Counted from the stretch's first letter, positions 7,896-44,302 are shown. The stretch: DNA of 64,000 nt from Kiritimatiellia bacterium (GCA_046483125.1 JAWODU010000019.1:1911-65910), one strand, 5' to 3'. Notes: a model not told the origin generated them from the sequence alone. Made by a program: numbers and translations.

Positions 7896-7924
7896 TCTAC
7901 TGTTACCCCTGCACTTACCCCGTC

Positions 7925-8006
7925 GTAGCTCTCTGGGCTCTTTGTGTACCCTTTCCCCCGCGTCATGCACTAAAAATCCTGTTGATCCCGCTGATCCTGC
8001 CTGAAA
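7925..8006. repeat. Partial copy of the GC-rich intergenic repeat family plus three 9-bp tandem repeats (ATCCTGTTGATCCCGCTGATCCTGCCTGAAA at 7976-8006)
   Basis: ctctgggctctttgtgtaccctttcccccgcgtc matches the element at 13921-13960. The tandem TGATCCTGT-like units are shared with 15651-15676 and 54031-54052. Confidence 0.6.
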
Positions 8007-19853: not shown

Positions 19854-19929
19854 TGGAGCCAGCTGTCAGATTCGAACTGACGACCTAGTGATTACAAATC
19901 ACTTGCTCTGCCGACTGAGCTAAGCTGGC
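19854..19929 (-). tRNA. tRNA-Thr (anticodon UGU), 76 nt, CCA encoded
   Basis: The reverse complement folds as a cloverleaf: acceptor GCCAGCT/AGCTGGC, D-arm GCTC..GAGC, anticodon stem AGTGA/TCACT with loop TTTGTAA, T-arm GTCAG-TTCGAAT-CTGAC, discriminator T, CCA. Confidence 0.85.
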
Positions 19930-20160
19930 CCCGGTCCAGTATCATGCCTGCACCAAAAACATAATACGCGAGCGCCCCCTGCGCAATACACAAAAGAGAG
20001 AAGGAAAAGTGCACCTGTGCGGCCGGATAAGTGTCTACAGCCGCTCGTCGACATTATTTCTCAAAAACGTTACCGTTAAACGAAATTGTACCTTGCAAAC
20101 CGGTAAGACAATGCTCTAGCATGATACATGTGAAGCGTGTGATTATCACAACAGCAGGAG

Positions 20161-20589
20161 ATGACATCCGTGTCGACTAAAGCACGTGCACCGATGGGAG
20201 TTGCCCTGGTTATTTGCGATCAGGTGATGACAGAGGCAGGCACAAACAAGAAGAGCCTGATCGGGATCTTCAACCAAATCTCTGCGAAGCAATTTCCATG
20301 TCGCCACCCTCGATTATGTATCTTTGTATCGTTAACCGGTGGTCACGGCAAAGGAAAAGCTAAGGTCCGGTGTGTCAACGAAAACAACGAAGACGAAGAA
20401 CTATTCGGCGCAGAGGGAGAAATCAACTTTCAGAGTCCCCTTCATGTAGTGGAGATAAACTTTGAGTTCAACAACGCACCTTTTCGAGCTCCCGGCAAAC
20501 ACCGAATTGACTTTTTATATGAGGGGGCCCCGGTATTGCAGAGGCCGTTTCGTGTAACGCAAACCAAAACCAGGGGGAACCAGACATGA
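20161..20589 (+). CDS. Hypothetical protein, first gene of a three-gene operon ending in a MazF-like toxin
   Basis: 142 aa with no recognisable family. The stop overlaps the next start (ATGA). Lies in lower-GC DNA. Confidence 0.4.
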   Translation: MTSVSTKARAPMGVALVICDQVMTEAGTNKKSLIGIFNQISAKQFPCRHPRLCIFVSLTGGHGKGKAKVRCVNENNEDEELFGAEGEINFQSPLHVVEINFEFNNAPFRAPGKHRIDFLYEGAPVLQRPFRVTQTKTRGNQT

Positions 20590-20810
20590 GTATCCTTGTC
20601 AAAGAAAAACCCGCTGTTCGTATCGAGGGTAGCCCACGGGATGCAGATCAAGTGTTTTTCGATGATGATTTCGCATCATCGTTCTTCGAATTCAAGATTT
20701 TTATGGCACAGGAACTCTCGGACGATGAGGTTATCAGATCTGCCGTGGAGTCCGGCGCTTACCAGTTCCTGGATTCACCAGAAGAAGACCTGTATTCCAG
20801 TACGGATTGA
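20586..20810 (+). CDS. Small acidic protein, putative antitoxin of the downstream MazF-like toxin
   Basis: 74 aa, D/E-rich. Overlaps both neighbours by 4 nt, the typical position of an antitoxin upstream of a PemK/MazF gene. Confidence 0.4.
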   Translation: MSILVKEKPAVRIEGSPRDADQVFFDDDFASSFFEFKIFMAQELSDDEVIRSAVESGAYQFLDSPEEDLYSSTD

Positions 20811-21160
20811 TAAGGATGAAGAAATGGGACGTCGTTCTTCTTTCATATCCATTCACTGACCTAACTGGTACTAAGGTGCGGCCCGCTGTAGTCCTGTCGC
20901 CTGACTCCGAAAATTCTGCGCAGGATGACGGGCTTTTCCTTTTGGTGACTTCAAACACCGCACGTATTTCAAGATATGATCTAGTGGTGGATTCAGGCCA
21001 TAAGGAATTCACTAAAACGGGCCTCAGAAAATCATCGGCCCTTAGAATTAACAAGCTGGTAACACTTAAGCAGACCCTGATCAGGAGGACGCTGGGCAAG
21101 ATTGGCCCAGAACTGCGGAAAGATATTACGTCTAGGCTTAGGGGCTACCTTGATCTCTAA
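20807..21160 (+). CDS. MazF/PemK-family type II toxin (endoribonuclease)
   Basis: 117 aa. WDVVLLSYPFTDLTGTKVRPAVVLS followed by LLVTSNT matches the PemK/MazF signature. Confidence 0.75.
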   Translation: MIRMKKWDVVLLSYPFTDLTGTKVRPAVVLSPDSENSAQDDGLFLLVTSNTARISRYDLVVDSGHKEFTKTGLRKSSALRINKLVTLKQTLIRRTLGKIGPELRKDITSRLRGYLDL

Positions 21161-21237
21161 GACAGACGTCTTACTTGAAGCGACAGCGGAAGTGGGCGGG
21201 CGGCGAGGACTACGACTAAGCCCAATTTCGTCGTTCG

Positions 21238-21492
21238 CTATCTGTAGACTTCTTTTCGATCTCCGATCGCGACCACCAAGACTACAAGCCTGTCATCATG
21301 GATTTCGTAAATCACGCGGTATGAACCGATGCGAATACGCCAAGCAGGCCGGCCCGAAAGCTTCTTGCAGCCGGGAGGGCGAGGATTCTCCGCAAGGGAT
21401 TCAATGGCTGCAATGATGCGTGCGTGGTCCTGACGGTTGATTTTCGCGAGTTGCCGTTGAGCCCGACGCAGAATATCGACTGCGTACGTCAC
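21238..21492 (-). CDS. RelE/ParE-family type II toxin
   Basis: 84 aa. LAENP..GCKKLSGRPAWRIRIGSYRVIYEIHDDRLVVLVVAIGDRKEVY is a canonical RelE/ParE core. Confidence 0.85.
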   Translation of the reverse strand: MTYAVDILRRAQRQLAKINRQDHARIIAAIESLAENPRPPGCKKLSGRPAWRIRIGSYRVIYEIHDDRLVVLVVAIGDRKEVYR

Positions 21493-21695
21493 GTATCATA
21501 TCCCTCTCGAATCTCTCGCACGGCTTGCTCGAAAGGGATGGCGTCCTGAGGGCCGGCTTTCGCCTTGTCGTAGGTTCTGATATCGTCGAGTTCCTCGAGA
21601 TCCTCGACAACGCGTTGCCACTCGGAAACAGGAAGGATGACAGATTTGGGGTTCTGTTTTTCGTCAACCACGTATTCTGGATGGACTTTAATCAT
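21489..21695 (-). CDS. Phd/YefM-type antitoxin paired with the RelE-like toxin
   Basis: 68 aa. Overlaps the toxin start by 4 nt and carries a GGAGGAAATAAT RBS. The acidic C-terminus is typical of these antitoxins. Confidence 0.65.
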   Translation of the reverse strand: MIKVHPEYVVDEKQNPKSVILPVSEWQRVVEDLEELDDIRTYDKAKAGPQDAIPFEQAVREIREGYDT

Positions 21696-21749
21696 ATTAT
21701 TTCCTCCAACTGACAGGCTTCTCGATCTTGCAGATCAATTCTTTTCGCT

Positions 21750-21942
21750 TCATGCGATTTGAAGCTCCGCCACCTTGCGGACACCAGGGATGTGCCCGCC
21801 TGTGAGGTCGTCATAAAGATCCTTAAGATTTTCCTGAAGGTTCCTCAAGGGTTTCTCCTTGAGTCATGTAATCGGGATAATCCTCCAGATATCCCAACCA
21901 CATATTTTCATATTGCCAGTGGACATATCGTATTGTTTTCAT
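21750..21942 (-). pseudogene. HicB-like (HicB_lk_antitox-type) antitoxin gene with an apparent +1 frameshift
   Basis: Frame A gives MKTIRYVHWQYENMWLGYLEDYPDYMTQGETLEEPSGKS*. Shifting one nucleotide at about 21835 continues the family-conserved ...TLEELQENLKDLYDDLTGGHIPGVRKVAELQIA*. This is consistent with an extra C in a CC run. Confidence 0.5.
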
Positions 21943-22009
21943 GTTATTAATATACACCTTGTTTGGATTTTTAGCAATCTTCTCTTTTGACACAACGCAA
22001 TCGGGGGAT

Positions 22010-22204
22010 TCATACCCGGCGTAGGCCGCATCTGCCATACCCGCCGGTCTGCCCCAGCTGCCTCCAGCCACTGACCCGGTACGCCGTGCCTCGAAAAAAC
22101 TGCCCGTCAACAAAGCTCTCGGCCACCAGGATCGGATGTTTATACCGCTGTTGCCAGTCGTTACTCAGACGCTGCAGGCACAACTTCATCGTCCGGCTGG
22201 CCAA
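22010..22204 (-). mobile_element. Possible IS/transposase-associated remnant (DUF4338-like C-terminal fragment)
   Basis: The 64-aa ORF VAESFVDGQFFRGTAYRVSGWRQLGQTGGYGR resembles the conserved C-terminus of IS-associated proteins. No intact transposase or terminal inverted repeats were recognised. Confidence 0.25.
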
Positions 22205-22390
22205 GTTCGCATAGTGACAGTCCGGCAGGAGCTTATGTGTTTTTTAAGGGACGCTGACCCCGTGGCCCCGTCGCTGATTTGTCTTCTTCGCAAGGCAGAA
22301 TAATGCTTAAATACTAATTCAAGGGTTGGCCCCACGGTCCACCACGGTCCATCTTAAAACGAGCATTTCCTTCCGTTTGTCCAAGTAAGT

Positions 22391-23908
22391 TCAGCGGATA
22401 ACACGCCGGTCGGAGATTTTCAGCAATTCTTCGGCCATGGCGTCCGAGCGCGCCACCCGCGGCACCTTGTGCTGGCCGCCCAGCTTGCCTTTTTCCTTCA
22501 TCCACTCGTAAAACGTGCCGGGAGACACCGTTATCATGACCGGCGGCCTGAGCCCGTAATCGCCGCGGCGATGGGTGTCGTAGTCCTCGCTCCGCGCGCG
22601 GATTTCGGAGTCCACGGTTTTCATGAATTCGCTTTCGTTTCCGGGCGGCGAGTCGAATTCAAATATCCACCTGTGAACCGGAACGGGTTCTTCAACAGAA
22701 GGATAACGCGGCCACACGGTGTAGTCGCTGAGAACCGCCCCGGTTTTTTCGCAGGCTTTTCCCACGGCTTTTTCCATCATCTCAAGGGTCACGTGTTCTC
22801 CGAAAGCGCTCAAGCCGATCCTGGTGCGCCCCGCGAATCTCACCCGCGGCGGCTGTACGCTTTCGAAACGTATCACGTCGCCAAGAGGATAGGCCCAGAT
22901 GCCGCCGTTTGTGGAAACGACTAAAGCGTAGTCCCTGCCCGTTTCCACCTCGCCGAAATGCAGGCGCGGCGCTTTCGCGTCTCCGGCCCGCTCCGCGGGA
23001 ATGAATTCGTAGTAGACACCGTTGTCCACGAGCATCCGCAACGGCCCGCCCGGTTCTTCCTGTATGGCCGTCATTCCCGCTTCGGAGGATGAATACGTGT
23101 CCATGTAAGCTATTCGGCGGCCTATGTATTCTTCAAAGGACTTCCCATAGGGTTCAAAGGCCATGCCGTATGACACGAAACACGCAAAGTCCGGCCACAG
23201 GGTCCCCGCGTTGCCGCCTCCCGAAGCAATCATTTCCTTAAACAGAAGCGCCGCCCAGGAAGGACAGGCGGACAGCACGCGGACCCTGGAGGTCAGGTAA
23301 CGTTCCACGATCATACGAATCTTCCGCTCCCAGTCGGCAACACACGCTATGTCCGCCTCCGGCAGATACCTGCCGTGCGCGTAAAACGGTATGTGTCTGC
23401 CCATTATTCCGGAGGCGTCGCCGTAGAGGCTTCTGCCCCGTTTCCTCAGGGAAGTCGAACCGCCGAGGTAAAAGAATTTCCCGTCCAGAATCGTCTCCGC
23501 GCCGACCCGCCGCGCCATAAAGGCGAGAAGCGCCGCGCCGGACCTCTTGTTGGAAGCGATGGCTTCTCTGGTAACAGGCAGGAGCTTGTTGCCGGCGGTA
23601 GTGCCCGAAGAAAGGGCAAAATAGCGGACGTGTCCCGGCCAGGTCACGTCGCGGGCGCCTTCAAACGCCTCGTGCCATTCGGGGGAGGCGGTTTCGTAGT
23701 CGGCAAGGGGCACGGCCGAGCGGTATTCTTCGGGGGTACGGATCTTCGAAAAACCGTGTTTACGGCCCAGGCGCGTAGCAGCCGCGCGCCCAAGCAGGCC
23801 GCGCAGAAGACGCGACTGGGAAGCGGCCGGATCGCGGCCGGATTCTTCCAGCTGTGCCGTGCGGCGCCGTATTGCCGCCTCTACCGCCAGTACCGCGAGT
23901 TTTTTCAC
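22391..23908 (-). CDS. GH3-family acyl-acid amido synthetase (adenylate-forming)
   Basis: 505 aa. SSGTTAGNKLLPVT AMP-binding motif and overall GH3-like architecture. Confidence 0.8.
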   Translation of the reverse strand: MKKLAVLAVEAAIRRRTAQLEESGRDPAASQSRLLRGLLGRAAATRLGRKHGFSKIRTPEEYRSAVPLADYETASPEWHEAFEGARDVTWPGHVRYFALSSGTTAGNKLLPVTREAIASNKRSGAALLAFMARRVGAETILDGKFFYLGGSTSLRKRGRSLYGDASGIMGRHIPFYAHGRYLPEADIACVADWERKIRMIVERYLTSRVRVLSACPSWAALLFKEMIASGGGNAGTLWPDFACFVSYGMAFEPYGKSFEEYIGRRIAYMDTYSSSEAGMTAIQEEPGGPLRMLVDNGVYYEFIPAERAGDAKAPRLHFGEVETGRDYALVVSTNGGIWAYPLGDVIRFESVQPPRVRFAGRTRIGLSAFGEHVTLEMMEKAVGKACEKTGAVLSDYTVWPRYPSVEEPVPVHRWIFEFDSPPGNESEFMKTVDSEIRARSEDYDTHRRGDYGLRPPVMITVSPGTFYEWMKEKGKLGGQHKVPRVARSDAMAEELLKISDRRVIR

Positions 23909-24028
23909 GGAGGCAGGATACCAGAGCGGCGGTGCGGAATGCCAAAGGAAATTCCTTGCGTTTTATTCTCAAATAACATCTACTTCCCACACTGTCGGCA
24001 GTGGCGGGTGAACGGAAAGAAGGAAGTT

Positions 24029-25261
24029 ATGGCCGATATTTTCGACAAATGCGTGAAGTTCCATAAGGAGTCGCGGATAGTAAGACAGGAAGACAGGGCC
24101 ATGGCGGAAAGTACCCTGTTCCGCCGCTCCCCCTTGAACAACGCGGGCCCCTGGATCAACCTGAACGGACGCCGCGTCCTGCAGTTCAGCACCAACGACT
24201 ATCTGGGCCTTGCCAGCCACGCCAAAGTGCGGAAAGCCGCCGTTGAAATAGTAAAAAAATACGGTGTGAGCGCTCCGATGGGTGCCCGGCCCCTGACGGG
24301 TACCATAGATCTGCACCTGGAACTGGAACAGCAGATCGCGGAATTCAAGCGCACCGAAAGATCCCTTGTCTTCAGTAACGGCGCCCATACCATGATGGGA
24401 ACCATAGCGGCCCTTGCCAGTCCGAGAGACCTGCTGATTCTTGACCGTTACGCTCACGCCAGCCTGCTGGCGGGCGCGAAAATGTCGGGGGCCCGGGTGC
24501 GTTTCTTCCGGCACAACGATCTGGAGCATCTCGAGGCGATACTTCTTGAAATCCCCTCCTCACAGGCCCGCATGGTGGTAGTTGACGGTGTGTACTCCAT
24601 GCAGGGGGACGTTGCGCCCCTGCCGGAACTGTGCGACCTGTGCGAGAAATACGGAGCAAGGCTTCTGGTCGACGACGCGCACGGAACGGGGGTCTGCGGT
24701 GAAAACGGCCGAGGCACGGCCGAAATGCTGGGCGTGGAAGACCGCGTGGACCTTCACCTAGGTACTTTCAGCAAGGCCGTTGCCACAACCGGCGGTTTCG
24801 CGGCTGGAGAAGCATCAGTCATAGAGTATCTCAAATACACCGCTCCCACGATTCTCTTTACCAAGGCCATGCCCGCGTGCGTGGCCGCCGCTACCCTTGA
24901 ATCCCTTCAGCTTCTGCGAAAGGCCAAGCGGCGACGGAAAGCGCTGTGGCGCAACGCACAGCATCTGCAGGAAGGCCTCCGCAAGGCAGGCTACGACATC
25001 GGCAGTACTCAATCCCCGATAACGCCGATAACCGGAAATGGAATCGATGCCGTTCACATGTCCACCGCTCTTTTTAACGAGCACAACATATGGGCCAGCG
25101 CCGTGCTCTACCCGGCCGTCCCGATGGGCACTTCCATTCTTCGCGTTATTCCCACCGCCGCTCACGCGCGCCACGACGTGAATGTCTTTCTTAAAGCAAT
25201 GAACAGGCTTAGGCATCCGCACTTGAACGTCTCTGAAAACACCGCTTATTCGGCCGCATGA
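24029..25261 (+). CDS. Alpha-oxoamine synthase (BioF/Kbl/SPT-family PLP enzyme)
   Basis: Roughly 410 aa from the ATG at 24029 (MADIFDK). GTFSKA PLP-lysine motif and the DDAHGTG motif. The track ORF starts at 23375, which is a spurious extension overlapping the GH3 gene. Confidence 0.85.
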   Translation: MADIFDKCVKFHKESRIVRQEDRAMAESTLFRRSPLNNAGPWINLNGRRVLQFSTNDYLGLASHAKVRKAAVEIVKKYGVSAPMGARPLTGTIDLHLELEQQIAEFKRTERSLVFSNGAHTMMGTIAALASPRDLLILDRYAHASLLAGAKMSGARVRFFRHNDLEHLEAILLEIPSSQARMVVVDGVYSMQGDVAPLPELCDLCEKYGARLLVDDAHGTGVCGENGRGTAEMLGVEDRVDLHLGTFSKAVATTGGFAAGEASVIEYLKYTAPTILFTKAMPACVAAATLESLQLLRKAKRRRKALWRNAQHLQEGLRKAGYDIGSTQSPITPITGNGIDAVHMSTALFNEHNIWASAVLYPAVPMGTSILRVIPTAAHARHDVNVFLKAMNRLRHPHLNVSENTAYSAA

Positions 25262-26403
25262 GTCCGGACCTGGAAATCGTTTCCGCCGGCAAACGGGCTG
25301 AACTTGAAGATTTTCTCGATCTGCCTTTCCGCCTTTACAGAGGCAATCCGAACTGGGTTCCCCCTCTGCGGAGTTCCCGGATGCGGACCCTGAAAGGGAA
25401 AACTGCCTTTTTCGAACACGGTGAAATGAAGCTCTTCCTCGCCGTGCGCGGCGGACAACCCGTCGGCAGAATCGCGGCCATAAAGAATGACGCTCACAAC
25501 CGCCGCTACAGCGACCGTACCGGGTTTTTCGGTTTTTTCGAATGCGACACCGAAGACGCCGAGGCCGCGGTAGAACTGTTCCGGCGCGCCGAGCGCTGGC
25601 TGAAGGAGAAGGGCATGGATACCGCTCGCGGACCCGTGAACCCTTCAATGAACTCGGAATGCGGACTGCTGATCCAGGGCTTTGACCACCCGCCGATGGT
25701 TCTGATGCCGTACAATCCGCCCGGGTATGAGGTTTTTTTTGAAAACGCCGGTTACGGGAAATGCAGGGATCTTTACGCTTATCTTGTAAAGGCCGAAGCG
25801 CTCATGCCTGAAAGCTCCCTGCACCGCCGCCTTCAGAAAATAGCCGACGGGCTGAAGCGCCGGCATCCCGAGATCTCCGTCAGGCCGCTCGACATGAAAA
25901 ACTACACCGCGGACATAATAAACGTGATGAACGTGTTCGAAGAGGCCAGGAAATCGAACTGGGGCTACGTGCCCGTTGCGCGGCGTGAAGTCCTTGAAAC
26001 AGCTTCGGATTTGAAACGGGTAGTTGATCCGGAAATAGTGCTTCTGGCGGAAGTAAACGGCGAACAGGCCGGAGTGTCCCTGGCCCTGCCCAACGTCAAC
26101 AGGGGGCTACTGAAAGCCCGGGGCCGCCTCTTTCCCGCCGGTTACTTAAGGTTCAGGCGGGAGATGAAAAAGAACCGGGAGGTCAGGATATTCGGCATAG
26201 CCGCTCTGCCGAAATACCGCCACATGGGAATTGCGGCCCTGCTGACCCTGGAAACCGTAAAGAGGGGATCGGCGCGCGGCTATAACCGGGGAGAGGCTTC
26301 CTGGGTGCTCGAAGATAACGACCTGTCAAACAGGACCATCACGCACGCGCTGGATCCCGATCACTACAAAACCTACCGTATATACGATAAAAAGCTCGCG
26401 TGA
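25258..26403 (+). CDS. GNAT-fold N-acyltransferase (FemAB/BioF2-like family)
   Basis: 381 aa. C-terminal GNAT-like motif RIFGIAALPKYRHMGIAALL. The start overlaps the upstream alpha-oxoamine synthase stop by 4 nt. Confidence 0.5.
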   Translation: MSPDLEIVSAGKRAELEDFLDLPFRLYRGNPNWVPPLRSSRMRTLKGKTAFFEHGEMKLFLAVRGGQPVGRIAAIKNDAHNRRYSDRTGFFGFFECDTEDAEAAVELFRRAERWLKEKGMDTARGPVNPSMNSECGLLIQGFDHPPMVLMPYNPPGYEVFFENAGYGKCRDLYAYLVKAEALMPESSLHRRLQKIADGLKRRHPEISVRPLDMKNYTADIINVMNVFEEARKSNWGYVPVARREVLETASDLKRVVDPEIVLLAEVNGEQAGVSLALPNVNRGLLKARGRLFPAGYLRFRREMKKNREVRIFGIAALPKYRHMGIAALLTLETVKRGSARGYNRGEASWVLEDNDLSNRTITHALDPDHYKTYRIYDKKLA

Positions 26404-26506
26404 AGGGACAATTTAAAAAATCTATTTTCCCCCTTCCCACCCCCGTATGATTCTGATAAGAATTCCGCCGATTGGTTAAAGAGTTTGAATAAGGAGGTGA
26501 ATTATC

Positions 26507-26719
26507 GTGCAGGTTAAAGTCACTGAAGACTGCATCGCGTGCGGACTCTGTGTGGAATTGTGCCCGGACGTTTTTCAGATCGGCGACCAGTACGCGGAAG
26601 TCCAGTTGGATCCGGTTCCACAGGAGTTCGCCAACGATGTTGAGCACACCGCCGATGAATGCCCGGTTTCCGCAATTGTAATCGACGAAGATCTGATAGG
26701 CGAAGAAAACGGCAACTGA
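26507..26719 (+). CDS. Small ferredoxin (single CxxCxxC...CP cluster)
   Basis: 70 aa. CIACGLCVELCP plus a distal CP. GTG start preceded by an AAGGAGGTG RBS. Confidence 0.8.
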   Translation: MQVKVTEDCIACGLCVELCPDVFQIGDQYAEVQLDPVPQEFANDVEHTADECPVSAIVIDEDLIGEENGN

Positions 26720-26725
26720 AACCGT

Positions 26726-27313
26726 CTACCAGCCGCCTCTTACTATGGGAAGCATTCGCCAGTGATACCGGTCGGTTATCACATTGGCCAGGCCGATTTG
26801 AAATCCTTTCAGGTAGCCGGTTATATTAACTACCCCGATCTGGGTCCCGGTTACCCGCCAGGCGTAATTGTATCCTCCAATCTGGAAACCTCTCAGCGTA
26901 TCGCACAGGTTGAGCAAGCCGATCTGGCAACCCATGATTTCCATGCCCATGGTGTTGAGCAGGCCTATCTGGGCGCCCTTGGCGTCATACTCCACAGCGT
27001 TCCACGGGGATATGGTCATGCCCCGCATTCCGTCCCGACAGCTGTTCATCAGGACACCTATACCTAAACCTTCGAAGTATCCTTCCGCACGATTGACAAA
27101 CCCTAAATCCAGGCCTCTTACGTTGCGGTTGCGGGAGTAAGGCAGGCTCAGACGCAGGCCTTCTATCGAGGCGTACTCATTGACTATTTGTCTCTTGGGA
27201 CTCAAGGATATCTGGAAATGCCCGATTTCCTCCTTGTCCTGCGCCCGGCCCGCGGCCGGGATCAGAAACATGATACTCGCGAGAAAAAGAATAAAACGGG
27301 ATGGTTTCATCAT
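26726..27313 (-). CDS. Secreted protein with about 7 tandem G-x-Q-I-G-L-x-N type repeats
   Basis: 195 aa. Signal peptide MMKPSRFILFLASIMFLIPAAGRAQ. Repeats include GAQIGLLN, GCQIGLLN, GFQIGGYN, GTQIGVVN and GFQIGLAN. Confidence 0.6.
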   Translation of the reverse strand: MMKPSRFILFLASIMFLIPAAGRAQDKEEIGHFQISLSPKRQIVNEYASIEGLRLSLPYSRNRNVRGLDLGFVNRAEGYFEGLGIGVLMNSCRDGMRGMTISPWNAVEYDAKGAQIGLLNTMGMEIMGCQIGLLNLCDTLRGFQIGGYNYAWRVTGTQIGVVNITGYLKGFQIGLANVITDRYHWRMLPIVRGGW

Positions 27314-27399
27314 TAATGTCCTCCTGATTGATTCCGCATACTATAAACTGCCGCCCTGTTATGCAAACATTTTAACTTGCGGTTTTTCATTTTTGCATC

Positions 27400-27600
27400 G
27401 CGGATAAGCGGCGCTACAGTACCTCCAGTACGCCGCCAGCGATGCAGGCTGTTGCGTCACGCATTTCGCTTCCGGAGGATTCGCAAATCGGATCGCAAGC
27501 CTGCCGCTTCTGCAAGGCCCCGCGCTCCGGGCTCCAACCCGCGTGTGGCGCGGGGGAGTGGCCGTACCGAACCTGCCCGGCATGCCCCTTGCCTCAATCC
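27400..27600. repeat. GC-rich intergenic repeat element (copy C, reverse orientation) in the nadA 5' leader
   Basis: aagcggcgctacagtacctccagtacgccgcc is the reverse complement of 13951-13995. ggctgttgcgtcacgcatttcgcttc is the reverse complement of 15706-15731. Its orientation relative to the downstream gene matches copies A and B. Confidence 0.7.
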
Positions 27601-29636: not shown

Positions 29637-30549
29637 GAAACCGTCCACCAAGCGCTTCAGGCGCGCGGCGCTCGCGCTTATCGCCGCGGCGGTAATTGCC
29701 GCCTGCTGGTTCGGGGGGCCCGCCGGTATCCTGCTCAGGAAAATCCTTTCCGGATATCTGCCTTACGAAACCCGTGAAGTAACCGTCACAGCCATCAGGC
29801 GCCGGAAAGCGTCCGAAAGCCTCAAAAGGGGCCTGTCTCTCCGGATAGAGCCTGAGCGGCTTATGGAAATAATCACCGCCGCGTATCCGGCCGCGGCGGC
29901 TCTGCCCCGGAAACTGGTCGAAAAAGGACTGTGCGTCGACGGTTACTGGCGGCCCGGGGAGTTCTCCCTGCCCGGAGGCGAATCGATACCGCTGAAACTC
30001 ATCCTGGAAGACACCCGTAACGGACCGGTGCTCGAAGGCAGGCTTCCGGTTGAGGAGGTCAACAGATCGCTGGAAACGGAACTTGTCGAGAAACTGAGGC
30101 GGAAGAAGAAATGGTTTCTTGGACATTATGAAGTAGTTTATGAGCCCGAATTCGTAACGTTCGCGCTGAGGTCACAGTCCGGTCCAGTTCTTACTCCCGT
30201 CACGAGCCGTAAATTCTTTTTCGAGGCCTCCGGACGCGTGAAAATATGGTTTGAGGACAGCCTGATTGCCGCCCGCAAAACCGCCGACGTAAAGAACCTC
30301 TTCGGGACAATAAACGTGAAAGTCGTCCGCGAAGACTCCCGGACGCGTCTTTCGTACGAAGCAGTCGTCGACATTCTGGAAGCCGATCTGCACGACACGC
30401 CGCCGTGGCTGGAAAGAGACCTGATTGACGACCTTCGGGAATCCCTGGAAAAATCACTGAACCGCGACAAGAACAGGAAACGCGTGGAAAGTCTCCCGAT
30501 TCCGGAATGGGCGCCCATGGATCTCGCAGTGAATCTAAGATTCGACTGA
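29617..30549 (+). CDS. Membrane-anchored hypothetical protein
   Basis: 310 aa with one N-terminal TM helix (AALALIAAAVIAACWF) and no recognisable family. Confidence 0.45.
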   Translation: MKDTGDKKPSTKRFRRAALALIAAAVIAACWFGGPAGILLRKILSGYLPYETREVTVTAIRRRKASESLKRGLSLRIEPERLMEIITAAYPAAAALPRKLVEKGLCVDGYWRPGEFSLPGGESIPLKLILEDTRNGPVLEGRLPVEEVNRSLETELVEKLRRKKKWFLGHYEVVYEPEFVTFALRSQSGPVLTPVTSRKFFFEASGRVKIWFEDSLIAARKTADVKNLFGTINVKVVREDSRTRLSYEAVVDILEADLHDTPPWLERDLIDDLRESLEKSLNRDKNRKRVESLPIPEWAPMDLAVNLRFD

Positions 30550-33500
30550 ACCATCTGCGGCGAGATACACGGTGATCTCGCTGACGTCGCCTTCGCGGAT
30601 GCGGCGGGCAAGCGGGTCATCGACGGAGCATCCGCTTGCCTCCGCTGAACCGCCGTCTTCGAACCGGAGCACGTAACGCGCGGGAGAGACCCCGTCTTCG
30701 CCGAAGGTGTTCTTCTTCCCGGGGTTCACGTAAACCACCAGGGTCCTGTTGAAAAGCACGAAGGCGTAGTGATCGGCGGGCAGAACGGATTCTCTTGTTT
30801 CTCCATCCCTGAGCCAGTTGACCTTCCGTTCCGCGCGGGCGAACAGCCACGCGGGCAGTACGGGCCGGAGACGGAAACGAAGGCGGCCCCCGCCGTCCGT
30901 CTCAAAAGGCGCGTTGCCGCAGTTGGCGTGTATCCACATGTCGTGAAACTCCGCAGTGGCCCCGCTGAGACGCGCATAGAAACCCCGGCCGTGCCACTCC
31001 CGGCACGGATGCGCGGAAGTGACCAGGAAGGAGGAATTCTCCAGGACCGAGCGGCCGTAGCGTTCCGGGGGCTGGAAGGGAATGAGGGCTTTTCGCATGT
31101 CCCGCCAGAACTCGGAATGCAGTCCGGATTTCAGGACCTCCAGCAGGAACTTGTACTCCATGTGCAGCCATATGGACGCGTTTTCGAGATACCCCGGCGG
31201 CCAGGCGCATGCCGCTCCCATCTGTTCGTAAACTCTGCCGAGGGGCTCGCTGACCCGGTACATTTCAAGCTCGGTATCGTAAAGCGGGGAGTTGCGCACC
31301 GCCAGATACTGGCTCCGGGCTTCATCCTCATCCCGGGAGGACCTGAGGTAATGCATCGGCCCTTCCAGAAAGTCCGTCAGGCCGTGCTGTTCAAATCGTC
31401 CGGGCACCACCACGACGCGGCCGTCTTTTTTCACGGTCTCGTACTCGACAAGCCGGTGATAGAAGTAGCTCGTAATAAGACCGGTTTTCCCGTCAATGGC
31501 GCGTTCAATGCCGCTGTCCAGTTTTTCGCGGCACGCCTTCAGAAAAGCCGCGGCCGCGTTCGCCCCAAGTGTCTTTTCCTCCCCGTCTATGCCGTCACGT
31601 GTTGAAGCACGGAAGGTTTCCTTGGCGGTGTTCGTGCGGTCCCAGTATTCAAACAGCGAATCCGGATCGTCGCCCGCCGTATCCCGGAGCGCCGCGCTCA
31701 CCGCGTCCACGAGGTCCGCGACTTCCCCGGGCAGTCGTATTTCAGCCGACCCGGCGTCCGGGAGGACGTCCGTCAACAGGTCCACAAGCCTTCGAAGCTC
31801 TATAGTTTCGTTTATGCTGGACCCGAAGTGGCGGGACATATCGTGCAGAGCGTCGTTCCAGTTGGCTTTTCCCGCTTCGAATTCAATGCCCATTCCGAAG
31901 GGATCCAGCGTGGCCATTTTCACCGGCACCAGCGCGAAGAGCCTCTCGAACAGAGACGTTTCGTAGACTTCTCCGGCGCCGCGGCCGATCCTTACTCCCT
32001 GGACCGGAAGCGGCAGAGGCGGCCAGGGCTCGCGGTTCGTATCCAGGAAATTCTTTTGTACCGGTATGCCGTCTTCAATCACTACGCGTTCTGAACGCGG
32101 TCTGACAAACGCTTCGCCGCGGCAGAAACGGTAAGTCCTGTCGTCGAAGAAAAGTTCTTTCCTGCAGTCGGGATAGAGGGAGAGAAAGCTGTCTATGAAA
32201 TCCAGGTTGTAGTGGAAATGGTCCGTCCAGAAACCGCTGATGGTGTCGGCTTTGTGCACGGCAAAGCTTTTCGCCATTACCCGGCCGAGAAATTCCAGCG
32301 GCTGTACGGCGGTTTTAATTCTGTTTTCGGCAACGGCCGTAAGAAGCCCTCCCGGGGTGAATTCTCTTTTCAGTATCTCCGTCAACACGGCCGTACCTTC
32401 ACCTCCCGCCCCGGCTTCGGCAGCGGCTTCGCCCGGAACGACGCCCTCTTCAAGCCTGAACACAGTTCCGAAAAGGTAATGCGGATTGTAACCGTCCAGG
32501 AAAATCATATCTGTATAGGTCCGGATATTGCTCTCGAGGACGTCGGGGTTCACGTAAATGGCGTTGCGCTGGTTCTGCGCTATATCCCGGTACCCGCCGT
32601 TGCCCTGGGACCAGAAACACGGTTCCACTTCGAAATGATTGTAGTCGCGCTCAAGGTCCCCGTGAATTCTGGAATAGACGTAAAAGACCCGTTTGCGGCC
32701 CGAAGCATCCGGAAGGTTAACCGGCAATCCGCCCCGCAGTACGTTATCCAGAAAAGTCGCCCGGCAGTAGTTGTCGTACGTAACGTCCGCGGAGAAAACG
32801 GCGCAGGGATTGGTAATCTCACTGATCAGGCGGCGGTTTTCCTCCCGCTTCTGCTTAAACCAGCCCGGGGTACACGCGGAGGCGGAGATACTCTCCAGTT
32901 TTGCCCGCCCGTTGACGTGCCCGTAAAGCGCGTGAATTGCGACGGTTTCGCCGGGGGGGATTTCCACGGATTTTGCCATCATCGCGGTGAAGAGAAGCCC
33001 TTCGCAAAGCTGGCCGCGCGGCACACTGAAAGGCGCGTCGAGAAAAGCGCGGGGAAGGTCAAGGCCGGTGTCCGGCCCGAACACGCATGCGGGATCCACA
33101 ATCGGCGGCATCAGCCCCTCTTCGTCACAGTGAAGGGCGAAATGTCCGCCGCCTTCCGCGCCCTGCGCCGACAGTTTGCGGGTCTGGAAGACGGGCGCGC
33201 GGTTTTCCAGGTTGGCCGCCACCGCCGTGCCCGAACGCGTGTTCATCATGTGCTTGATGTCCATGTGGTCAAGGCCGAACGGCAGGACCCTTGGAAGACC
33301 GTCGATCCATTCAATTGAGACTGTTTCACTGCCGGTATTGGTGACGCTGACGCGGCGGGCAAGAGCAGGGTACAGTTCCCGCGGGACAGTCATGAAGGTA
33401 ACGTTGACTTCAACGTTGAGACGCGGGTTTATTTCTTTCAGGTTCAGCTCGGCAGGATTAAAGGAAAGAGTAGATACACAGCCGTACTCGCGGGGACCCC

Positions 33501-33792
33501 TTCCGGGCCGGAACGGTTCGTAATACTGCCCCGCGACTTTCAGGAACGTGCGGAAACCGCCCAGGGGCGTCAACCGGTAAGCGTCCACCGCCGGTGAAAA
33601 ATCCAGCATGGCTCCGGACTTGTTGCGCACGCCGAATGAACTCACGCACTGTCCGCGGTTGACGAAGAAACACCAGAGCGGCACGCCGTCCAGGCCGGCC
33701 ACTCCCGGAAAGAAATTCGCGAAAGGCGCGGCGTTGTTGTAGTTCTCGATGGTTGTGGAACCATCTTCGGAGATATCATAGCTCACTTTCAA
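30535..33792 (-). CDS. Large (1085 aa) uncharacterised protein, possibly (alpha/alpha)6-barrel glycoside hydrolase/phosphorylase-like
   Basis: Long ORF with a soluble composition and weak resemblance to toroid glycosidase/phosphorylase families. Last gene of a co-directional array. Confidence 0.5.
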   Translation of the reverse strand: MKVSYDISEDGSTTIENYNNAAPFANFFPGVAGLDGVPLWCFFVNRGQCVSSFGVRNKSGAMLDFSPAVDAYRLTPLGGFRTFLKVAGQYYEPFRPGRGPREYGCVSTLSFNPAELNLKEINPRLNVEVNVTFMTVPRELYPALARRVSVTNTGSETVSIEWIDGLPRVLPFGLDHMDIKHMMNTRSGTAVAANLENRAPVFQTRKLSAQGAEGGGHFALHCDEEGLMPPIVDPACVFGPDTGLDLPRAFLDAPFSVPRGQLCEGLLFTAMMAKSVEIPPGETVAIHALYGHVNGRAKLESISASACTPGWFKQKREENRRLISEITNPCAVFSADVTYDNYCRATFLDNVLRGGLPVNLPDASGRKRVFYVYSRIHGDLERDYNHFEVEPCFWSQGNGGYRDIAQNQRNAIYVNPDVLESNIRTYTDMIFLDGYNPHYLFGTVFRLEEGVVPGEAAAEAGAGGEGTAVLTEILKREFTPGGLLTAVAENRIKTAVQPLEFLGRVMAKSFAVHKADTISGFWTDHFHYNLDFIDSFLSLYPDCRKELFFDDRTYRFCRGEAFVRPRSERVVIEDGIPVQKNFLDTNREPWPPLPLPVQGVRIGRGAGEVYETSLFERLFALVPVKMATLDPFGMGIEFEAGKANWNDALHDMSRHFGSSINETIELRRLVDLLTDVLPDAGSAEIRLPGEVADLVDAVSAALRDTAGDDPDSLFEYWDRTNTAKETFRASTRDGIDGEEKTLGANAAAAFLKACREKLDSGIERAIDGKTGLITSYFYHRLVEYETVKKDGRVVVVPGRFEQHGLTDFLEGPMHYLRSSRDEDEARSQYLAVRNSPLYDTELEMYRVSEPLGRVYEQMGAACAWPPGYLENASIWLHMEYKFLLEVLKSGLHSEFWRDMRKALIPFQPPERYGRSVLENSSFLVTSAHPCREWHGRGFYARLSGATAEFHDMWIHANCGNAPFETDGGGRLRFRLRPVLPAWLFARAERKVNWLRDGETRESVLPADHYAFVLFNRTLVVYVNPGKKNTFGEDGVSPARYVLRFEDGGSAEASGCSVDDPLARRIREGDVSEITVYLAADGSVES

Positions 33793-35821: not shown

Positions 35822-36715
35822 TCAGAGCAGGCCCTGCTCTTTCAGAAACTGTTCCGCCACTTCTTCCGGTTCGCGTTTTTTTTCATCGACCTGGTAGTTG
35901 AGCTTTCTCATCGTCTTATCGTCAATCAAACCGCCGAGACGTTCCAGGGCATCGACCGCGTCCGGATACTTCTCTTTAAATTCAATGCGAATTACCGGGG
36001 CCGCGAAATACGGCGGGAAGAACTGCTTGTCGTCTTTCAGTTTTTGCAGATTGTAAGCGGCAATGCGTCCGTCGGTGGCAAAGGCGCAGATTACGTCCAC
36101 GTTGCCCTGCTCCGCCGCTTCATACATGATCCCGGGGTCCATGTCCATGGTGTTCCCGAAATCAAGCCCGTAGCGGTTCTTGAGACCGGGGTACCCGTCC
36201 TCACGTTCCATGAATTCGGCCGTGAATCCGGCCGTCAGGGTATCGCCAATGGCCCCGAGGTCGCTTATGGTGTCCAGGTTTTTTTCTTCGGCGAAGCTTT
36301 CGCGGACCGTTATGGCGTAAGTGTTGTTGAAGCCGAAGGGTTCCAGCCAGTCGCATTGATAGCGCTCCCTGTAAGCCCGGTCCACAGCCTCGTACGCTTC
36401 TTCGGGGTCCCGTATCACGTCTTTTTTCAGAATGGCCGTCAGGGCGGTTCCTGTGTATTCGGCGTACACGTCAAGGCTTCCGGATTCCAGCCCTCCGTGG
36501 CAGATCATTGTGCCTCCGAGGTTGAACACTCTCTTAACGTCCATGTCTGTTTCCGCCTCGATCACAAGGGCCATCAGTTCGCCCAGTATCAGCTGTTCGG
36601 TAAAGTTTTTCGACCCTACCCGGATAACGCCTTCCGTGTTGCCGCCGCCGCATCCGGATCCGGCTAGAATCGCGGCCGCCGCCGCGCACGCCGTTATGTT
36701 TTTTATTATATGCAT
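35822..36715 (-). CDS. Glycine betaine/quaternary-amine ABC transporter substrate-binding lipoprotein (OpuAC/ProX-like)
   Basis: 297 aa with a LAGSGC lipobox and IRVGSKNFTEQLILGEL typical of OpuAC. Confidence 0.85.
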   Translation of the reverse strand: MHIIKNITACAAAAAILAGSGCGGGNTEGVIRVGSKNFTEQLILGELMALVIEAETDMDVKRVFNLGGTMICHGGLESGSLDVYAEYTGTALTAILKKDVIRDPEEAYEAVDRAYRERYQCDWLEPFGFNNTYAITVRESFAEEKNLDTISDLGAIGDTLTAGFTAEFMEREDGYPGLKNRYGLDFGNTMDMDPGIMYEAAEQGNVDVICAFATDGRIAAYNLQKLKDDKQFFPPYFAAPVIRIEFKEKYPDAVDALERLGGLIDDKTMRKLNYQVDEKKREPEEVAEQFLKEQGLL

Positions 36716-36728
36716 AACTTAACTCCCG

Positions 36729-38976: not shown

Positions 38977-38991
38977 GGTTCGTTCCTCCGG

Positions 38992-41508: not shown

Positions 41509-41541
41509 TGTAACTGTGCTCCTTTCTGTTATCTCGTTTAC

Positions 41542-42993: not shown

Positions 42994-43003
42994 GGCGGGA
43001 CTG

Positions 43004-44293: not shown

Positions 44294-44302
44294 GATATAC
44301 TC

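What the first reader, a model, noticed from the sequence alone, without database searches (positions are those of the whole stretch)
22391..26403. Divergent cluster: GH3-type adenylating amido synthetase / alpha-oxoamine synthase / FemAB-BioF2-like N-acyltransferase, a candidate lipoamino-acid or sphingoid-type lipid pathway
GH3 enzymes conjugate carboxylic acids to amino acids. Alpha-oxoamine synthases condense acyl-CoA/ACP with amino acids (SPT, CapB, BioF). The translationally coupled GNAT/FemAB-like protein is an acyltransferase. Together with the nearby ferredoxin, this suggests biosynthesis of an N-acyl or 3-keto-amine lipid such as a sulfonolipid, sphingolipid or ornithine-lipid-like molecule.
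Basis: partly seen in the sequence, partly recalled or inferred. Interest (0 to 1): 0.7.

Follow-up and report, generated by a model that had tools for sequence, protein, structure and literature searches.

The report
PVC-bacterial acidic sphingoid-lipid gene cassette
Three adjacent genes in this Kiritimatiellia genome form a cassette conserved across the Planctomycetes-Verrucomicrobia group that most likely builds a ceramide-like membrane lipid with a negatively charged (sulfonate-type) head, a lipid type so far known only from Bacteroidetes, and ties a plant-hormone-type GH3 enzyme to it.

Summary
There are three genes: a GH3 gene (22391-23908, minus strand), an alpha-oxoamine synthase (AOS, 24029-25261) divergent from it, and a 381-aa acyltransferase (25258-26403) that overlaps the AOS stop by ATGA.

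The lipid interpretation is broadly right and can be sharpened.
- **Conservation.** The GH3/AOS pair is present in all 12 relatives' loci that could be examined, and the full trio in 11 of them. An epimerase-type reductase is often adjacent.
- **AOS.** It is not BioF, Kbl or a standard serine palmitoyltransferase. It carries the Lys and PMGAR signature of cysteate acyltransferases (SulA/CapB) and is their sister clade.
- **Acyltransferase.** It is a tandem GNAT, not FemAB-like. In many other phyla the same family sits in reductase-Spt-GNAT clusters that lack GH3 and look like ceramide clusters. The PVC subfamily differs at two acceptor-loop positions (Tyr to Phe, Trp to Arg).
- **GH3.** It is an intact homologue of the ornithine-lipid enzyme OlsH but scores below that family's cutoff.

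Best reading: this is a capnine-like or otherwise anionic sphingoid lipid pathway. The GH3 step and the amino-acid substrate remain unresolved. The nearby ferredoxin is not conserved. I rate this a new variant of known pathways.

The parts
22391..23908 (-). GH3-family (ANL superfamily) acyl-acid amido synthetase, 505 aa. It is a homologue of the lyso-ornithine-lipid synthetase OlsH but falls below that family's cutoff.
   Evidence: Pfam GH3, GH3_M and GH3_C all match. NCBIfam OlsH_GH3_orni scores 417.9 bits over residues 6-497, against a cutoff of 620. The nucleotide motifs S100SGTTAGNK108, Y272SSSE276 and Y340PLGD344 are present. Within them, S101, G102, T103, T104, K108, S273, S275, E276, G343 and D344 are at least 97% conserved in 110 orthologues; compare the OlsH motifs. 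The gene is divergently paired with the AOS in all 12 distinct relatives' loci examined.
23909..24028 (.). 120-bp divergent intergenic spacer between GH3 and the AOS. It presumably holds the two promoters.
   Evidence: The sequence was read directly. No sigma-70 consensus site was found here, so a regulatory role is inferred only from the conserved divergent arrangement.
24029..25261 (+). PLP-dependent alpha-oxoamine synthase, 410 aa, of the cysteate-acyltransferase-like ('Lys-type') kind.
   Evidence: Aminotran_1_2 matches at E 2e-56. The protein is below the cutoffs of the bioF, Kbl, Spt, ALAS and CqsA NCBIfam models. The best PDB sequence matches are Sphingobacterium Spt 3a2b (276 bits), cysteate-C-fatty acyltransferase 28eh (270 bits) and SulA 7u7h (266 bits). 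The catalytic residues N56, H143, K249 and R372 are kept. K279 aligns with SulA Lys281, and A82PMGAR87 matches the insertion motif of SulA/CapB. In the NJ tree the GH3-linked clade is monophyletic in 200/200 replicates and sister to the two cysteate acyltransferases in 165/200.
25258..26403 (+). Tandem-repeat GNAT N-acyltransferase, 381 aa, translationally coupled to the AOS. It belongs to the family that accompanies Spt-like genes in many phyla and is a putative bCerS-type enzyme.

Best explanation
The three genes are the core of a lipid-biosynthesis cassette specific to the PVC superphylum (Kiritimatiellia, Phycisphaerae, Brocadiia, Pirellulaceae, Lentisphaeria). It is a derivative of the widespread bacterial reductase-Spt-ceramide-synthase cluster, re-tooled for an anionic head group. 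The proposed steps follow.

1. The AOS forms a PLP aldimine with an acidic amino acid. L-cysteate is favoured, by homology to SulA/CapB. The AOS then condenses it decarboxylatively with a fatty acyl-ACP/CoA to give a 3-keto long-chain amine (3-ketocapnine-like). Shown: AOS family membership, intact catalytic residues, the SulA-type Lys/PMGAR signature and the sister position to cysteate acyltransferases. Inferred: the actual substrate.
2. The translationally coupled tandem GNAT N-acylates that amine from an acyl thioester, as bacterial ceramide synthase does. Its PVC-specific Arg231 in the acceptor loop would accommodate the anionic head group. Shown: the fold, the synteny and fusions with AOS, and the subfamily-specific residues. 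Inferred: the reaction.
3. An extended-SDR 'epimerase' reductase reduces the 3-keto group. It sits next to GH3 in 7 of the 12 distinct relatives' loci but is missing from this window, where a low-GC toxin-antitoxin island lies instead. This step is inferred.
4. The GH3 enzyme adenylates a carboxylic acid with ATP and forms an amide in the same pathway. My best guess (about 0.3 on its own) is an OlsH-like, CoA/ACP-independent N-acylation of the long-chain base with a free (hydroxy) fatty acid. This is the weakest step.

The predicted product is an N-acyl capnine-like sulfonolipid, or a closely related anionic sphingoid membrane lipid.
For: **Conservation.** The GH3/AOS divergent pair is present in all 12 distinct relatives' loci examined, and the full trio in 11. 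It survives the insertion of a restriction-modification system between AOS and GNAT in L007.

**Accessory genes in relatives.** These include the epimerase-type reductase, LPG_synthase_TM flippase-like genes and an MMPL gene.

**AOS.** It has the SulA-type Lys, the PMGAR insertion and the YPAVP..RVIPTA motif in every GH3-linked locus. Every intact AOS in a GH3-less locus has Ala/GSR like Spt. Lys281 distinguishes the four aligned SulA/CapB cysteate acyltransferases from the Spt, and the K281A mutant is about 1000-fold less active. The NJ tree agrees. Only 8 of the 150 nearest 50%-identity representatives carry this Lys.

**GH3-less clusters.** Their AOS is 47-59% identical to the crystallised Sphingobacterium Spt. 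That makes the neighbouring GNAT and reductase the likely bCerS/CerR equivalents described.

**GNAT.** 58 positions are conserved across both subfamilies. Only F227/R231 versus Y/W switch, and they do so perfectly.

**GH3.** There is a full-length match to the OlsH model and the adenylation motifs are intact. OlsH makes N-acyl-ornithine from a free fatty acid plus ATP.
Against: - No substrate was tested.
- The AOS is only 36-38% identical to SulA/CapB, about the same as to Spt. The bootstrap for the sister relationship is 82%, in a simple NJ tree with partial reference sequences.
- Radka et al. concluded that Lys281 is structural rather than a charge-neutralising ligand, so it does not prove cysteate use.
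- No cysteate synthase gene was seen in this 64-kb window or in the flanks of relatives.
- With a GNAT already available for N-acylation, an N-acylating GH3 looks redundant.
- All GH3-linked loci form one clade. The GH3 / Lys-type AOS association is therefore a single evolutionary event, not independent replication.
- Identity of the GNAT family with Caulobacter bCerS (CCNA_01212) could not be tested directly.
- The reductase gene is not in this window.
Confidence: 0.5

Rival explanations
1. A new amino-lipid built on an aspartate- or glutamate-derived backbone. The Lys-type AOS would condense an acidic carboxylate amino acid (aspartate is isosteric with cysteate) with acyl-ACP, giving a 3-amino-4-oxo long-chain acid. 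The GNAT would N-acylate the amine. GH3 would then do its canonical chemistry on the remaining carboxylate and amidate it with an amino acid. The product would be an ornithine-lipid analogue whose second chain is amide-linked rather than ester-linked.
For: This is the only scheme in which all three enzymes perform their canonical reactions and none is redundant. GH3 and OlsH act on lipidic carboxylic acids plus amino acids. No cysteate-synthesis gene was found near any cassette. Gains of positive charge in both the AOS (K279) and the GNAT (R231) fit any anionic side chain, not only a sulfonate. The PVC AOS clade is well separated from the Bacteroidota cysteate enzymes, at 36-38% identity.
Against: No AOS using aspartate or glutamate appeared among the characterised PDB or NCBIfam matches, and I know of none and of no such lipid. 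The only characterised Lys-type AOS enzymes use cysteate. There is no direct evidence on the acid substrate of this GH3.
Confidence: 0.2
2. GH3 is the acyl-activating partner of the AOS. It would be a functional analogue of the dedicated acyl-ACP synthetase AasR of alphaproteobacterial sphingolipid clusters, or of FAAL domains. In this scheme it activates a free fatty acid that the AOS then consumes, while the GNAT alone performs the N-acylation.
For: The Caulobacter ceramide locus combines an adenylating enzyme (AasR), CerR, AcpR and Spt. Close AOS relatives, including Lys-type ones, occur as AMP-binding / PP-binding / AOS tridomain proteins: P0367, P0378 and P0383. GH3-AOS is the tightest pair and is retained in L091, where the GNAT is not adjacent. 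This scheme removes the redundancy of two N-acylases.
Against: No carrier-protein gene lies in any of the cassettes. The only characterised bacterial GH3, OlsH, needs neither CoA nor ACP and forms an amide. To my knowledge no GH3 enzyme is known to form a thioester.
Confidence: 0.18
3. An ordinary serine-derived ceramide (sphingolipid) cluster, Spt plus bCerS. GH3 would be either an unrelated neighbour or an independent OlsH-like N-acyl-amino-acid (lyso-aminolipid) synthetase that is merely co-localised with other membrane-lipid genes.
For: Spt-like proteins were already predicted in 138 Planctomycetota and 22 Verrucomicrobiota MAGs. The AOS scores almost equally against Spt and the cysteate enzymes. 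The GNAT family accompanies true Spt-like genes elsewhere. GH3 is a separate transcription unit.
Against: The AOS lacks the Spt signature (Ala, GSR) that is found in every intact AOS of a GH3-less locus, and has the SulA one instead. It is excluded from the Spt clade in 199/200 bootstraps. The partner GNAT has switched two otherwise invariant acceptor-loop residues. GH3 adjacency is kept in 12/12 distinct loci across several classes.
Confidence: 0.1
4. Housekeeping BioF (biotin) or Kbl (threonine catabolism) that happens to lie next to unrelated genes.
For: The best single NCBIfam score is for the bioF model, at 354.6 bits.
Against: That score is below the bioF cutoff of 426. No bio or tdh genes are nearby. 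E. coli BioF and Kbl fall outside the clade, at 32% and 29% identity. The conserved partners are lipid-type enzymes.
Confidence: 0.02

Closest known systems
Sulfonolipid (capnine) pathway of Bacteroidota: CapA/cysteate synthase, CapB = SulA = CFAT, CapC/KCR reductase, and an unidentified N-acyltransferase
   Same: The AOS shares the distinguishing Lys (SulA Lys281 = window K279), the PMGAR insertion and the C-terminal YP..P.G...R.IPTA motif. It groups as sister to SulA and the 28eh enzyme. The overall logic also matches: condensation, keto-reduction, then N-acylation.
   Different: Identity is only 36-38%. The host phyla are PVC, not Bacteroidota. No cysteate synthase is nearby. The associated reductase is an extended SDR/epimerase type like CerR, not the classical short SDR described for CapC/KCR. 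Here the condensing enzyme is coupled to a tandem GNAT and paired with a GH3. Neither partner is part of the published sulfonolipid pathway, whose fourth enzyme was not named in the 2023-2024 papers I read.
Bacterial ceramide pathway Spt-bCerS-CerR (Caulobacter crescentus; also AasR/AcpR)
   Same: The set of activities and the gene-cluster logic are the same. In at least 45 genome loci from Ignavibacteria, Acidobacteriota, Bacteroidota, Gemmatimonadota, Caldithrix and Rubrobacteraceae, the same GNAT family lies beside an Spt-like AOS (47-59% identical to SmSpt among the closest) and an epimerase-type reductase. 58 GNAT positions are shared with the PVC subfamily.
   Different: The PVC version has a Lys-type AOS instead of the Ala-type. 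It has F227/R231 instead of Y/W in the GNAT. It has an added GH3 and no dedicated ACP or AasR. Direct homology of this GNAT to CCNA_01212 was not tested.
OlsH/OlsI ornithine-lipid pathway of Singulisphaera acidiphila (GH3-like lyso-ornithine lipid synthetase)
   Same: OlsH is the closest characterised relative of the GH3 gene. The match to the OlsH model is full-length, at E 5e-125. All three nucleotide-binding motifs are kept. Both occur in the PVC superphylum.
   Different: The score of 418 is below the equivalog cutoff of 620. No OlsG methyltransferase or OlsI alpha/beta-hydrolase lies in the operon. The partners are instead an AOS and a tandem GNAT. The amine or acid substrate is therefore probably different.
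FAAL-ACP-AOS tridomain enzymes and AasR-AcpR-Spt systems
   Same: An adenylating enzyme is genetically tied to an alpha-oxoamine synthase. Some of the fused proteins are also Lys-type.
   Different: Here the adenylating enzyme is a GH3, not a classical AMP-binding (PF00501) enzyme. There is no carrier-protein domain or gene.

Membership tests
GH3 acyl-acid amido synthetases (Pfam PF03321/PF23571/PF23572) | All three GH3 domains score above their gathering thresholds. | tested here: met
   The scores are 117.4, 60.1 and 75.3 bits, each against a cutoff of 23.6.
GH3 acyl-acid amido synthetases | The three nucleotide-binding motifs are present: SSGT..G..K, Y.SSE and Y..GD. | tested here: met
   The window protein has S100SGTTAGNK108, Y272SSSE276 and Y340PLGD344. 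The core residues are at least 97% conserved in 110 orthologues.
OlsH (lyso-ornithine lipid synthetase, NCBIfam NF052613 equivalog) | The score reaches the curated equivalog cutoff. | tested here: not met
   The score is 417.9 bits against a cutoff of 620.
OlsH | The gene lies in an operon with the OlsI alpha/beta-hydrolase (and OlsG), as in planctomycete OlsH genes. | tested here: not met
   The neighbours are an AOS and a GNAT. No hydrolase or methyltransferase lies in the cassette in the window or in the 12 distinct relatives' loci.
OlsH | ATP-dependent N-acylation of ornithine with a free fatty acid. | not testable with these tools
   This needs an enzyme assay.
Alpha-oxoamine synthases (PLP fold type I, Aminotran_1_2) | The domain matches, and the catalytic Asn/His/Lys/Arg equivalent to SulA N53, H140, K251 and R376 are present. 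| tested here: met
   PF00155 scores 192 bits. N56, H143, K249 and R372 align with the SulA residues.
BioF (8-amino-7-oxononanoate synthase, TIGR00858) | The equivalog cutoff is reached and the gene lies in a bio operon. | tested here: not met
   The score is 354.6 against 426.45. No bio genes are in the window. E. coli BioF lies outside the clade.
Serine palmitoyltransferase (NF047600/NF047599/NF047603) | The equivalog cutoffs are reached, and the Spt active-site signature is present (Ala at the SulA-281 position and GSR without the insertion). | tested here: not met
   The scores are 341.5/640, 306.3/500 and 252.7/670. The window protein has Lys279 and APMGAR instead. It is excluded from the Spt clade in 199/200 bootstraps.
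Cysteate-C-fatty acyltransferase (SulA/CapB/CFAT) | Lys at the SulA Lys281 position, the one clear active-site difference from Spt. | tested here: met
   K279 lies in LFTKAMP and aligns with LYAKSLP of 7u7h and MFAKSLP of 28eh. The Lys is present in every GH3-linked locus with an intact AOS, and in L091.
Cysteate-C-fatty acyltransferase | Phylogenetic grouping with characterised members. | tested here: inconclusive
   The clade is sister to 28eh and 7u7h in 165/200 NJ bootstraps. Identity is only 36-38%, and only two partial references were available.
Cysteate-C-fatty acyltransferase | Uses L-cysteate and acyl-ACP to make 3-ketocapnine, with a cysteate supply in the genome. | not testable with these tools
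No cysteate synthase was seen in the window or in the flanks of relatives, but the whole genomes were not available.
Bacterial ceramide synthase bCerS (Caulobacter CCNA_01212 family) | A GNAT-superfamily acyltransferase genetically linked to Spt and CerR. | tested here: met
   The same family lies next to Spt-like AOS genes (47-59% identical to SmSpt among the closest) in 53 non-PVC genome loci. An epimerase-type reductase is also adjacent in 45 of them. AOS-GNAT fusions exist.
Bacterial ceramide synthase bCerS | Sequence homology to the characterised CCNA_01212 / BF9343_4218 proteins. | not tested
   No reference sequence was reachable. The paper is not held. NCBIfam has no matching model. 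The last homologue search returned only uncultured lineages.

The most novel reading that the evidence does not exclude
The cassette makes a lipid class not yet described. An acidic amino acid (aspartate-like, or cysteate) is condensed with a fatty acyl chain. The resulting amine is N-acylated by the tandem GNAT. The GH3 enzyme then completes the molecule with a second amide bond. In the carboxylate version this yields an ornithine-lipid analogue whose 'piggy-back' chain is amide-linked rather than ester-linked. A corollary follows: the very large, functionally unassigned bacterial GH3 family (about 90% of it in Bacteroidota) would be tied to sphingoid/sulfonolipid-type lipids, and the GH3 or this GNAT would be the missing N-acylating enzyme of sulfonolipid synthesis.
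Probability: 0.2. Interest if true: 0.8.

Novelty: new variant of a known kind. Interest (0 to 1): 0.62.

Why it matters
- **Taxonomic reach.** In the papers I read, sulfonolipids are described as lipids of Bacteroidota, plus a diatom. They act in gliding motility, in choanoflagellate development and in TLR4 signalling in the gut. A conserved cysteate-acyltransferase-like cassette in Kiritimatiellia, Phycisphaerae, Brocadiia and Pirellulaceae would extend anionic sphingoid lipids to the PVC superphylum, whose envelope lipids are poorly known.
- **Testable candidates.** The cassette gives two concrete candidates for N-acylation of such bases: a bCerS-like tandem GNAT with a subfamily-specific Arg, and an OlsH-like GH3. 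The enzyme for this step in the sulfonolipid pathway was not named in the 2023-2024 papers I read.
- **A context for bacterial GH3.** It is the first conserved genomic context, apart from OlsH-OlsG-OlsI, for the large bacterial GH3 family.
- **Sequence markers.** AOS Lys versus Ala, and GNAT Phe/Arg versus Tyr/Trp, could be used to split 'Spt-like' hits in metagenomes into neutral and anionic head-group producers.

Tried and rejected
**Direct test of GNAT = bCerS.** The Stankeviciute 2022 and Vences-Guzman 2021 papers are not held. Other papers give only locus tags. The supplement of Ding 2024 has no sequences. The third homologue search, using the GNAT next to the most SmSpt-like AOS (L020), returned only uncultured candidate phyla. 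The link therefore rests on synteny.

**Accessory genes in the window.** I searched by tblastn for the epimerase reductase, LPG_synthase_TM, the small membrane protein, MMPL, LysE and the second aminotransferase. There were no hits.

**Ferredoxin as a pathway member.** Rejected, because it is not conserved next to the cassette in any relative.

**FemAB-type reading of the acyltransferase.** Rejected on fold comparison.

**BioF/Kbl reading.** Rejected.

**Promoter and terminator scan of 22000-27400.** There was nothing in the divergent spacer, and the counts equalled the shuffled expectation.

**att-like direct repeats flanking the low-GC island.** None were convincing.

**Literature.** I looked for GH3 linked to sulfonolipids and for sulfonolipids in Planctomycetes. 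No such report is in the held library.

**Structural paper on the 28eh cysteate acyltransferase.** Not found.

**Cultured carriers.** The genome scan returned only MAGs among the close (PVC-type) hits.

**Technical failures.** A Biopython bootstrap run timed out and was replaced by a faster distance/NJ script.

Full report
**What is in the window.** The 64-kb window matches a Kiritimatiellia metagenome-assembled genome: the GNAT and GH3 proteins are 100% identical to NCBI entries of that name.

At the reported coordinates there are three real genes.
- A GH3-family gene at 22391-23908 on the minus strand (505 aa). All three Pfam GH3 domains are well above threshold.
- An alpha-oxoamine synthase (AOS). 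Its true start is the ATG at 24029, behind a purine-rich ribosome-binding stretch. It is 410 aa, with Aminotran_1_2 at E 2e-56, and homologues align from residue 1.
- A 381-aa acyltransferase at 25258-26403. Its ATG overlaps the AOS stop codon as ATGA.

GH3 and the AOS are divergent across 120 bp. The surrounding genes are housekeeping: PurL, ThiE, LipA, NadA, pyruvate kinase, and betaine transport with MttB genes.

**Is the arrangement conserved?** Yes, strongly. I examined contigs carrying homologues of the GNAT or of GH3, from Planctomycetota, Phycisphaerae, Brocadiia, Pirellulaceae and unclassified PVC lineages. After removing duplicate contigs these are 12 distinct loci: L001, L003-L008, L010, L011, L013, the DNA-less contig, and L091. 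A further contig, L012, starts at the AOS and cannot be scored for GH3.
- Every one of the 12 has GH3 divergently paired with the AOS, and 11 also have the GNAT.
- The pair survives the insertion of an Eco29kI restriction-modification system between the AOS and GNAT in L007.
- It also survives the loss of GNAT adjacency in L091.
- An NAD-dependent epimerase / 3-beta-HSD-type reductase lies next to GH3 in seven loci. LPG_synthase_TM (flippase-like) genes, an MMPL gene and a small membrane protein recur.
- None of these accessory genes is in our window. The position beside GH3 is occupied instead by a 48%-GC island after tRNA-Thr that carries toxin-antitoxin genes.
- The ferredoxin is never conserved there, so I exclude it from the unit.

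**The acyltransferase.**
- It has no PDB sequence match and no NCBIfam match.
- An AlphaFold2 model built on 35 homologues is confident: pLDDT 89, pTM 0.87.
- The family is very large: at least 7000 proteins and 595 confirmed matches in the scan of species-representative genomes.
- In the 80 best genome loci, 58 have an AOS next to it. In the non-PVC ones there is usually also the same epimerase-type reductase, but never a GH3. These come from Ignavibacteria including Melioribacter, Acidobacteriota, Bacteroidota, Gemmatimonadota, Caldithrix, Nitrospinota and Rubrobacteraceae.
- Among these loci, the AOS genes closest to the crystallised Sphingobacterium multivorum serine palmitoyltransferase are 47-59% identical to it.
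- This matches the Spt-bCerS-CerR arrangement described for bacterial ceramide synthesis, which has been used to predict sphingolipid producers in metagenomes.
- Natural AOS-GNAT fusions exist: L055 at 799 aa, and P0379.
- I could not align the protein with Caulobacter bCerS itself, so membership of that family rests on synteny.

**The AOS.**
- It is below the curated cutoffs of all NCBIfam equivalogs: bioF, Kbl, three Spt models, ALAS and CqsA.
- It scores almost equally against Spt (3a2b) and two cysteate acyltransferases (28eh, and SulA 7u7h) in the PDB.
- The residue-level alignments are more telling. Every intact AOS from a GH3-linked locus has three features in common with SulA/CapB: a one-residue insertion with the motif A/S-P-M-G-A-R, a Lys at the position of SulA Lys281 (window K279, LFTKAMP), and a C-terminal YPAVP...RVIPTA motif.
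- Every intact AOS from a GH3-less locus has GSR without the insertion, and Ala at that position, like Spt.
- Radka et al. identified Lys281 as the one clear active-site difference between an Spt and the four SulA/CapB cysteate acyltransferases they aligned. [quoted passage not shown]
- In a neighbour-joining tree (33 sequences, 393 columns, 200 bootstraps):
  - the GH3-linked AOS are monophyletic (200/200);
  - they are sister to the two cysteate enzymes (165/200);
  - they are separate from the Spt clade (199/200);
  - E. coli BioF and Kbl and the Thermus AOS lie outside.
- In an exhaustive search of 1.84 billion representatives, the clade is compact: three representatives at 376-476 bits, then a drop to 357 and 309 bits. 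Only 8 of the 150 nearest representatives carry the Lys, and all seven that could be aligned over that region also carry the P-M/L-G-A/S-R motif.

**A matching change in the GNAT.** Between the PVC subfamily and the non-PVC (Spt-linked) loci, 58 positions are conserved and identical. Only three differ consistently. Two of them switch perfectly in a larger comparison of window-like and L020-like proteins: F227/R231 in 118/118 versus Y/W in 117/117. They lie at the end of helix alpha-1 and in the alpha-1/alpha-2 loop of the C-terminal, acyl-CoA-binding GNAT domain (secondary structure; R321-x-x-G324 motif). That is the usual acceptor-binding region of GNAT enzymes; this last point is general knowledge of the fold and was not tested here.

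So the enzyme that makes the long-chain amine and the enzyme predicted to acylate it have each gained a basic residue. This is what one expects if the shared intermediate carries an anionic head group. It is an inference, and all these loci form one clade, so it counts as one evolutionary event.

**GH3.**
- The gene matches NCBIfam's OlsH model over its whole length (E 5e-125, 418 bits) but falls short of the 620-bit equivalog cutoff.
- OlsH is a planctomycete GH3-like enzyme that makes N-acyl-ornithine from a free fatty acid, ornithine and ATP/Mg2+, without CoA or ACP. It works with the O-acyltransferase OlsI.
- The three nucleotide-binding motifs are present here, and their core residues are at least 97% conserved in 110 orthologues. 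The enzyme should therefore be active.
- Its operon partners differ from those of OlsH. The OlsH authors themselves expect homologues outside the OlsH clade to use other substrates.

**How it most likely works.** The cassette is a PVC-specific derivative of the reductase-Spt-ceramide-synthase cluster.
1. The Lys-type AOS condenses an acidic amino acid with an acyl thioester, giving a 3-keto long-chain amine. Cysteate is favoured by homology.
2. The coupled GNAT N-acylates that amine.
3. The epimerase-type reductase, encoded elsewhere in this genome, reduces the ketone.
4. GH3 adds an ATP-driven amide-forming step.

The product would be a sulfobacin-like N-acyl capnine or a related anionic sphingoid membrane lipid. 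The flippase-like and MMPL genes in relatives fit a membrane destination.

The GH3 step is the least certain, and I see three options.
- (a) OlsH-like N-acylation of the base with a free fatty acid. This is my best guess, but it is redundant with the GNAT.
- (b) Amidation of a lipid carboxylate, if the amino acid is aspartate-like rather than cysteate. This is the only scheme in which no enzyme is redundant. It would give a new lipid class, and nothing here excludes it.
- (c) Acyl activation for the AOS, by analogy with AasR and with the AMP-binding / ACP / AOS fusions found among close relatives, some of them Lys-type. The complete absence of a carrier protein argues against it.

**Weaknesses.**
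- No biochemistry was possible.
- The AOS is only 36-38% identical to the cysteate enzymes.
- The tree is a simple NJ tree with partial reference sequences.
- Lys281 was interpreted by its discoverers as structural, not as the sulfonate ligand.
- No cysteate synthase was found near any cassette.
- The bCerS link is by synteny only.

**Novelty.** Spt-like proteins have been predicted before in Planctomycetota and Verrucomicrobiota. Bacterial GH3 homologues are known to be widespread. In the held literature I found no report linking GH3 enzymes to sulfonolipid or sphingolipid clusters. I also found no sulfonolipids reported from PVC bacteria, and no named N-acyltransferase for the sulfonolipid pathway. 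I therefore class this as a new variant of known pathways. It comes with testable sequence markers and clear experiments.

Noticed in passing
window 19854-22390: tRNA-Thr(tgt) is followed by a roughly 2.4-kb island of 48% GC, against about 58% elsewhere. It carries DUF6941 (20161-20589), a MazF/PemK-like gene (20807-21160), a RelE/ParE-like toxin (21238-21492, minus strand) with an overlapping antitoxin-like ORF (21489-21695, minus strand), and gene fragments. It sits where relatives carry the reductase or the small membrane protein next to GH3. It may therefore be an insertion that displaced them. No flanking att repeat was found.
   Followed up: partly
window 26507-26719 and 26726-27313: There is a 70-aa ferredoxin (CxxCxxC...CP), and on the opposite strand a 195-aa signal-peptide protein with GxQIGLxN-type repeats and no Pfam family. 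Neither is conserved next to the cassette in relatives.
   Followed up: partly
L055 5741-8140; proteins P0379 (648 aa) and P0366 (777 aa): These appear to be natural fusions of the AOS and the tandem GNAT in one polypeptide. L055 and P0366 are Ala-type; for P0366 Pfam detected only the AOS domain. P0379 is Lys-type and N-terminally truncated. Longer GNAT-family proteins (P0105, P0269, P0279, P0289) were not examined.
   Followed up: partly
proteins P0367, P0378, P0383 (also P0394 and P0437): These are tridomain AMP-binding / phosphopantetheine-carrier / AOS proteins of about 1050-1130 aa, found among the nearest AOS representatives. Three of them carry the SulA-type Lys and PMGSR motif. Their organisms and gene contexts could not be looked up.
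   Followed up: no
L007 4362-6586: An Eco29kI-type restriction endonuclease and a DNA methylase are inserted between the AOS and GNAT genes of an otherwise intact cassette.
   Followed up: no
L004 9622-12731: A glycyl-radical enzyme (PFL-like) and its radical-SAM activase lie directly downstream of the cassette in a Brocadiia MAG. Glycyl-radical enzymes include sulfonate-cleaving members, but this adjacency was seen only once.
   Followed up: no
window 35822-47333 (minus strand): This block holds a glycine-betaine-type ABC transporter (OpuAC, permease, ATPase), a sucrose-6-phosphate phosphatase-like gene, two GT4 glycosyltransferases (one of 838 aa), a methyltransferase and two MttB-family methyltransferase genes. 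It suggests compatible-solute synthesis and betaine demethylation.
   Followed up: no
window 1932-7970, 30535-33792, 56127-61511 (all minus strand): These are very large ORFs of 2012, 1085 and 1794 aa. The first two have essentially no Pfam match. The third was not scanned.
   Followed up: no
L087 (Cloacimonetes UBA5553) and other loci with the GNAT alone (for example L015, L019, L029, L039): In 22 of the 80 genome loci, the tandem GNAT has no AOS or reductase within 7 kb. For Cloacimonadota this agrees with the published remark that bCerS and CerR are not co-localised with Spt there.
   Followed up: no
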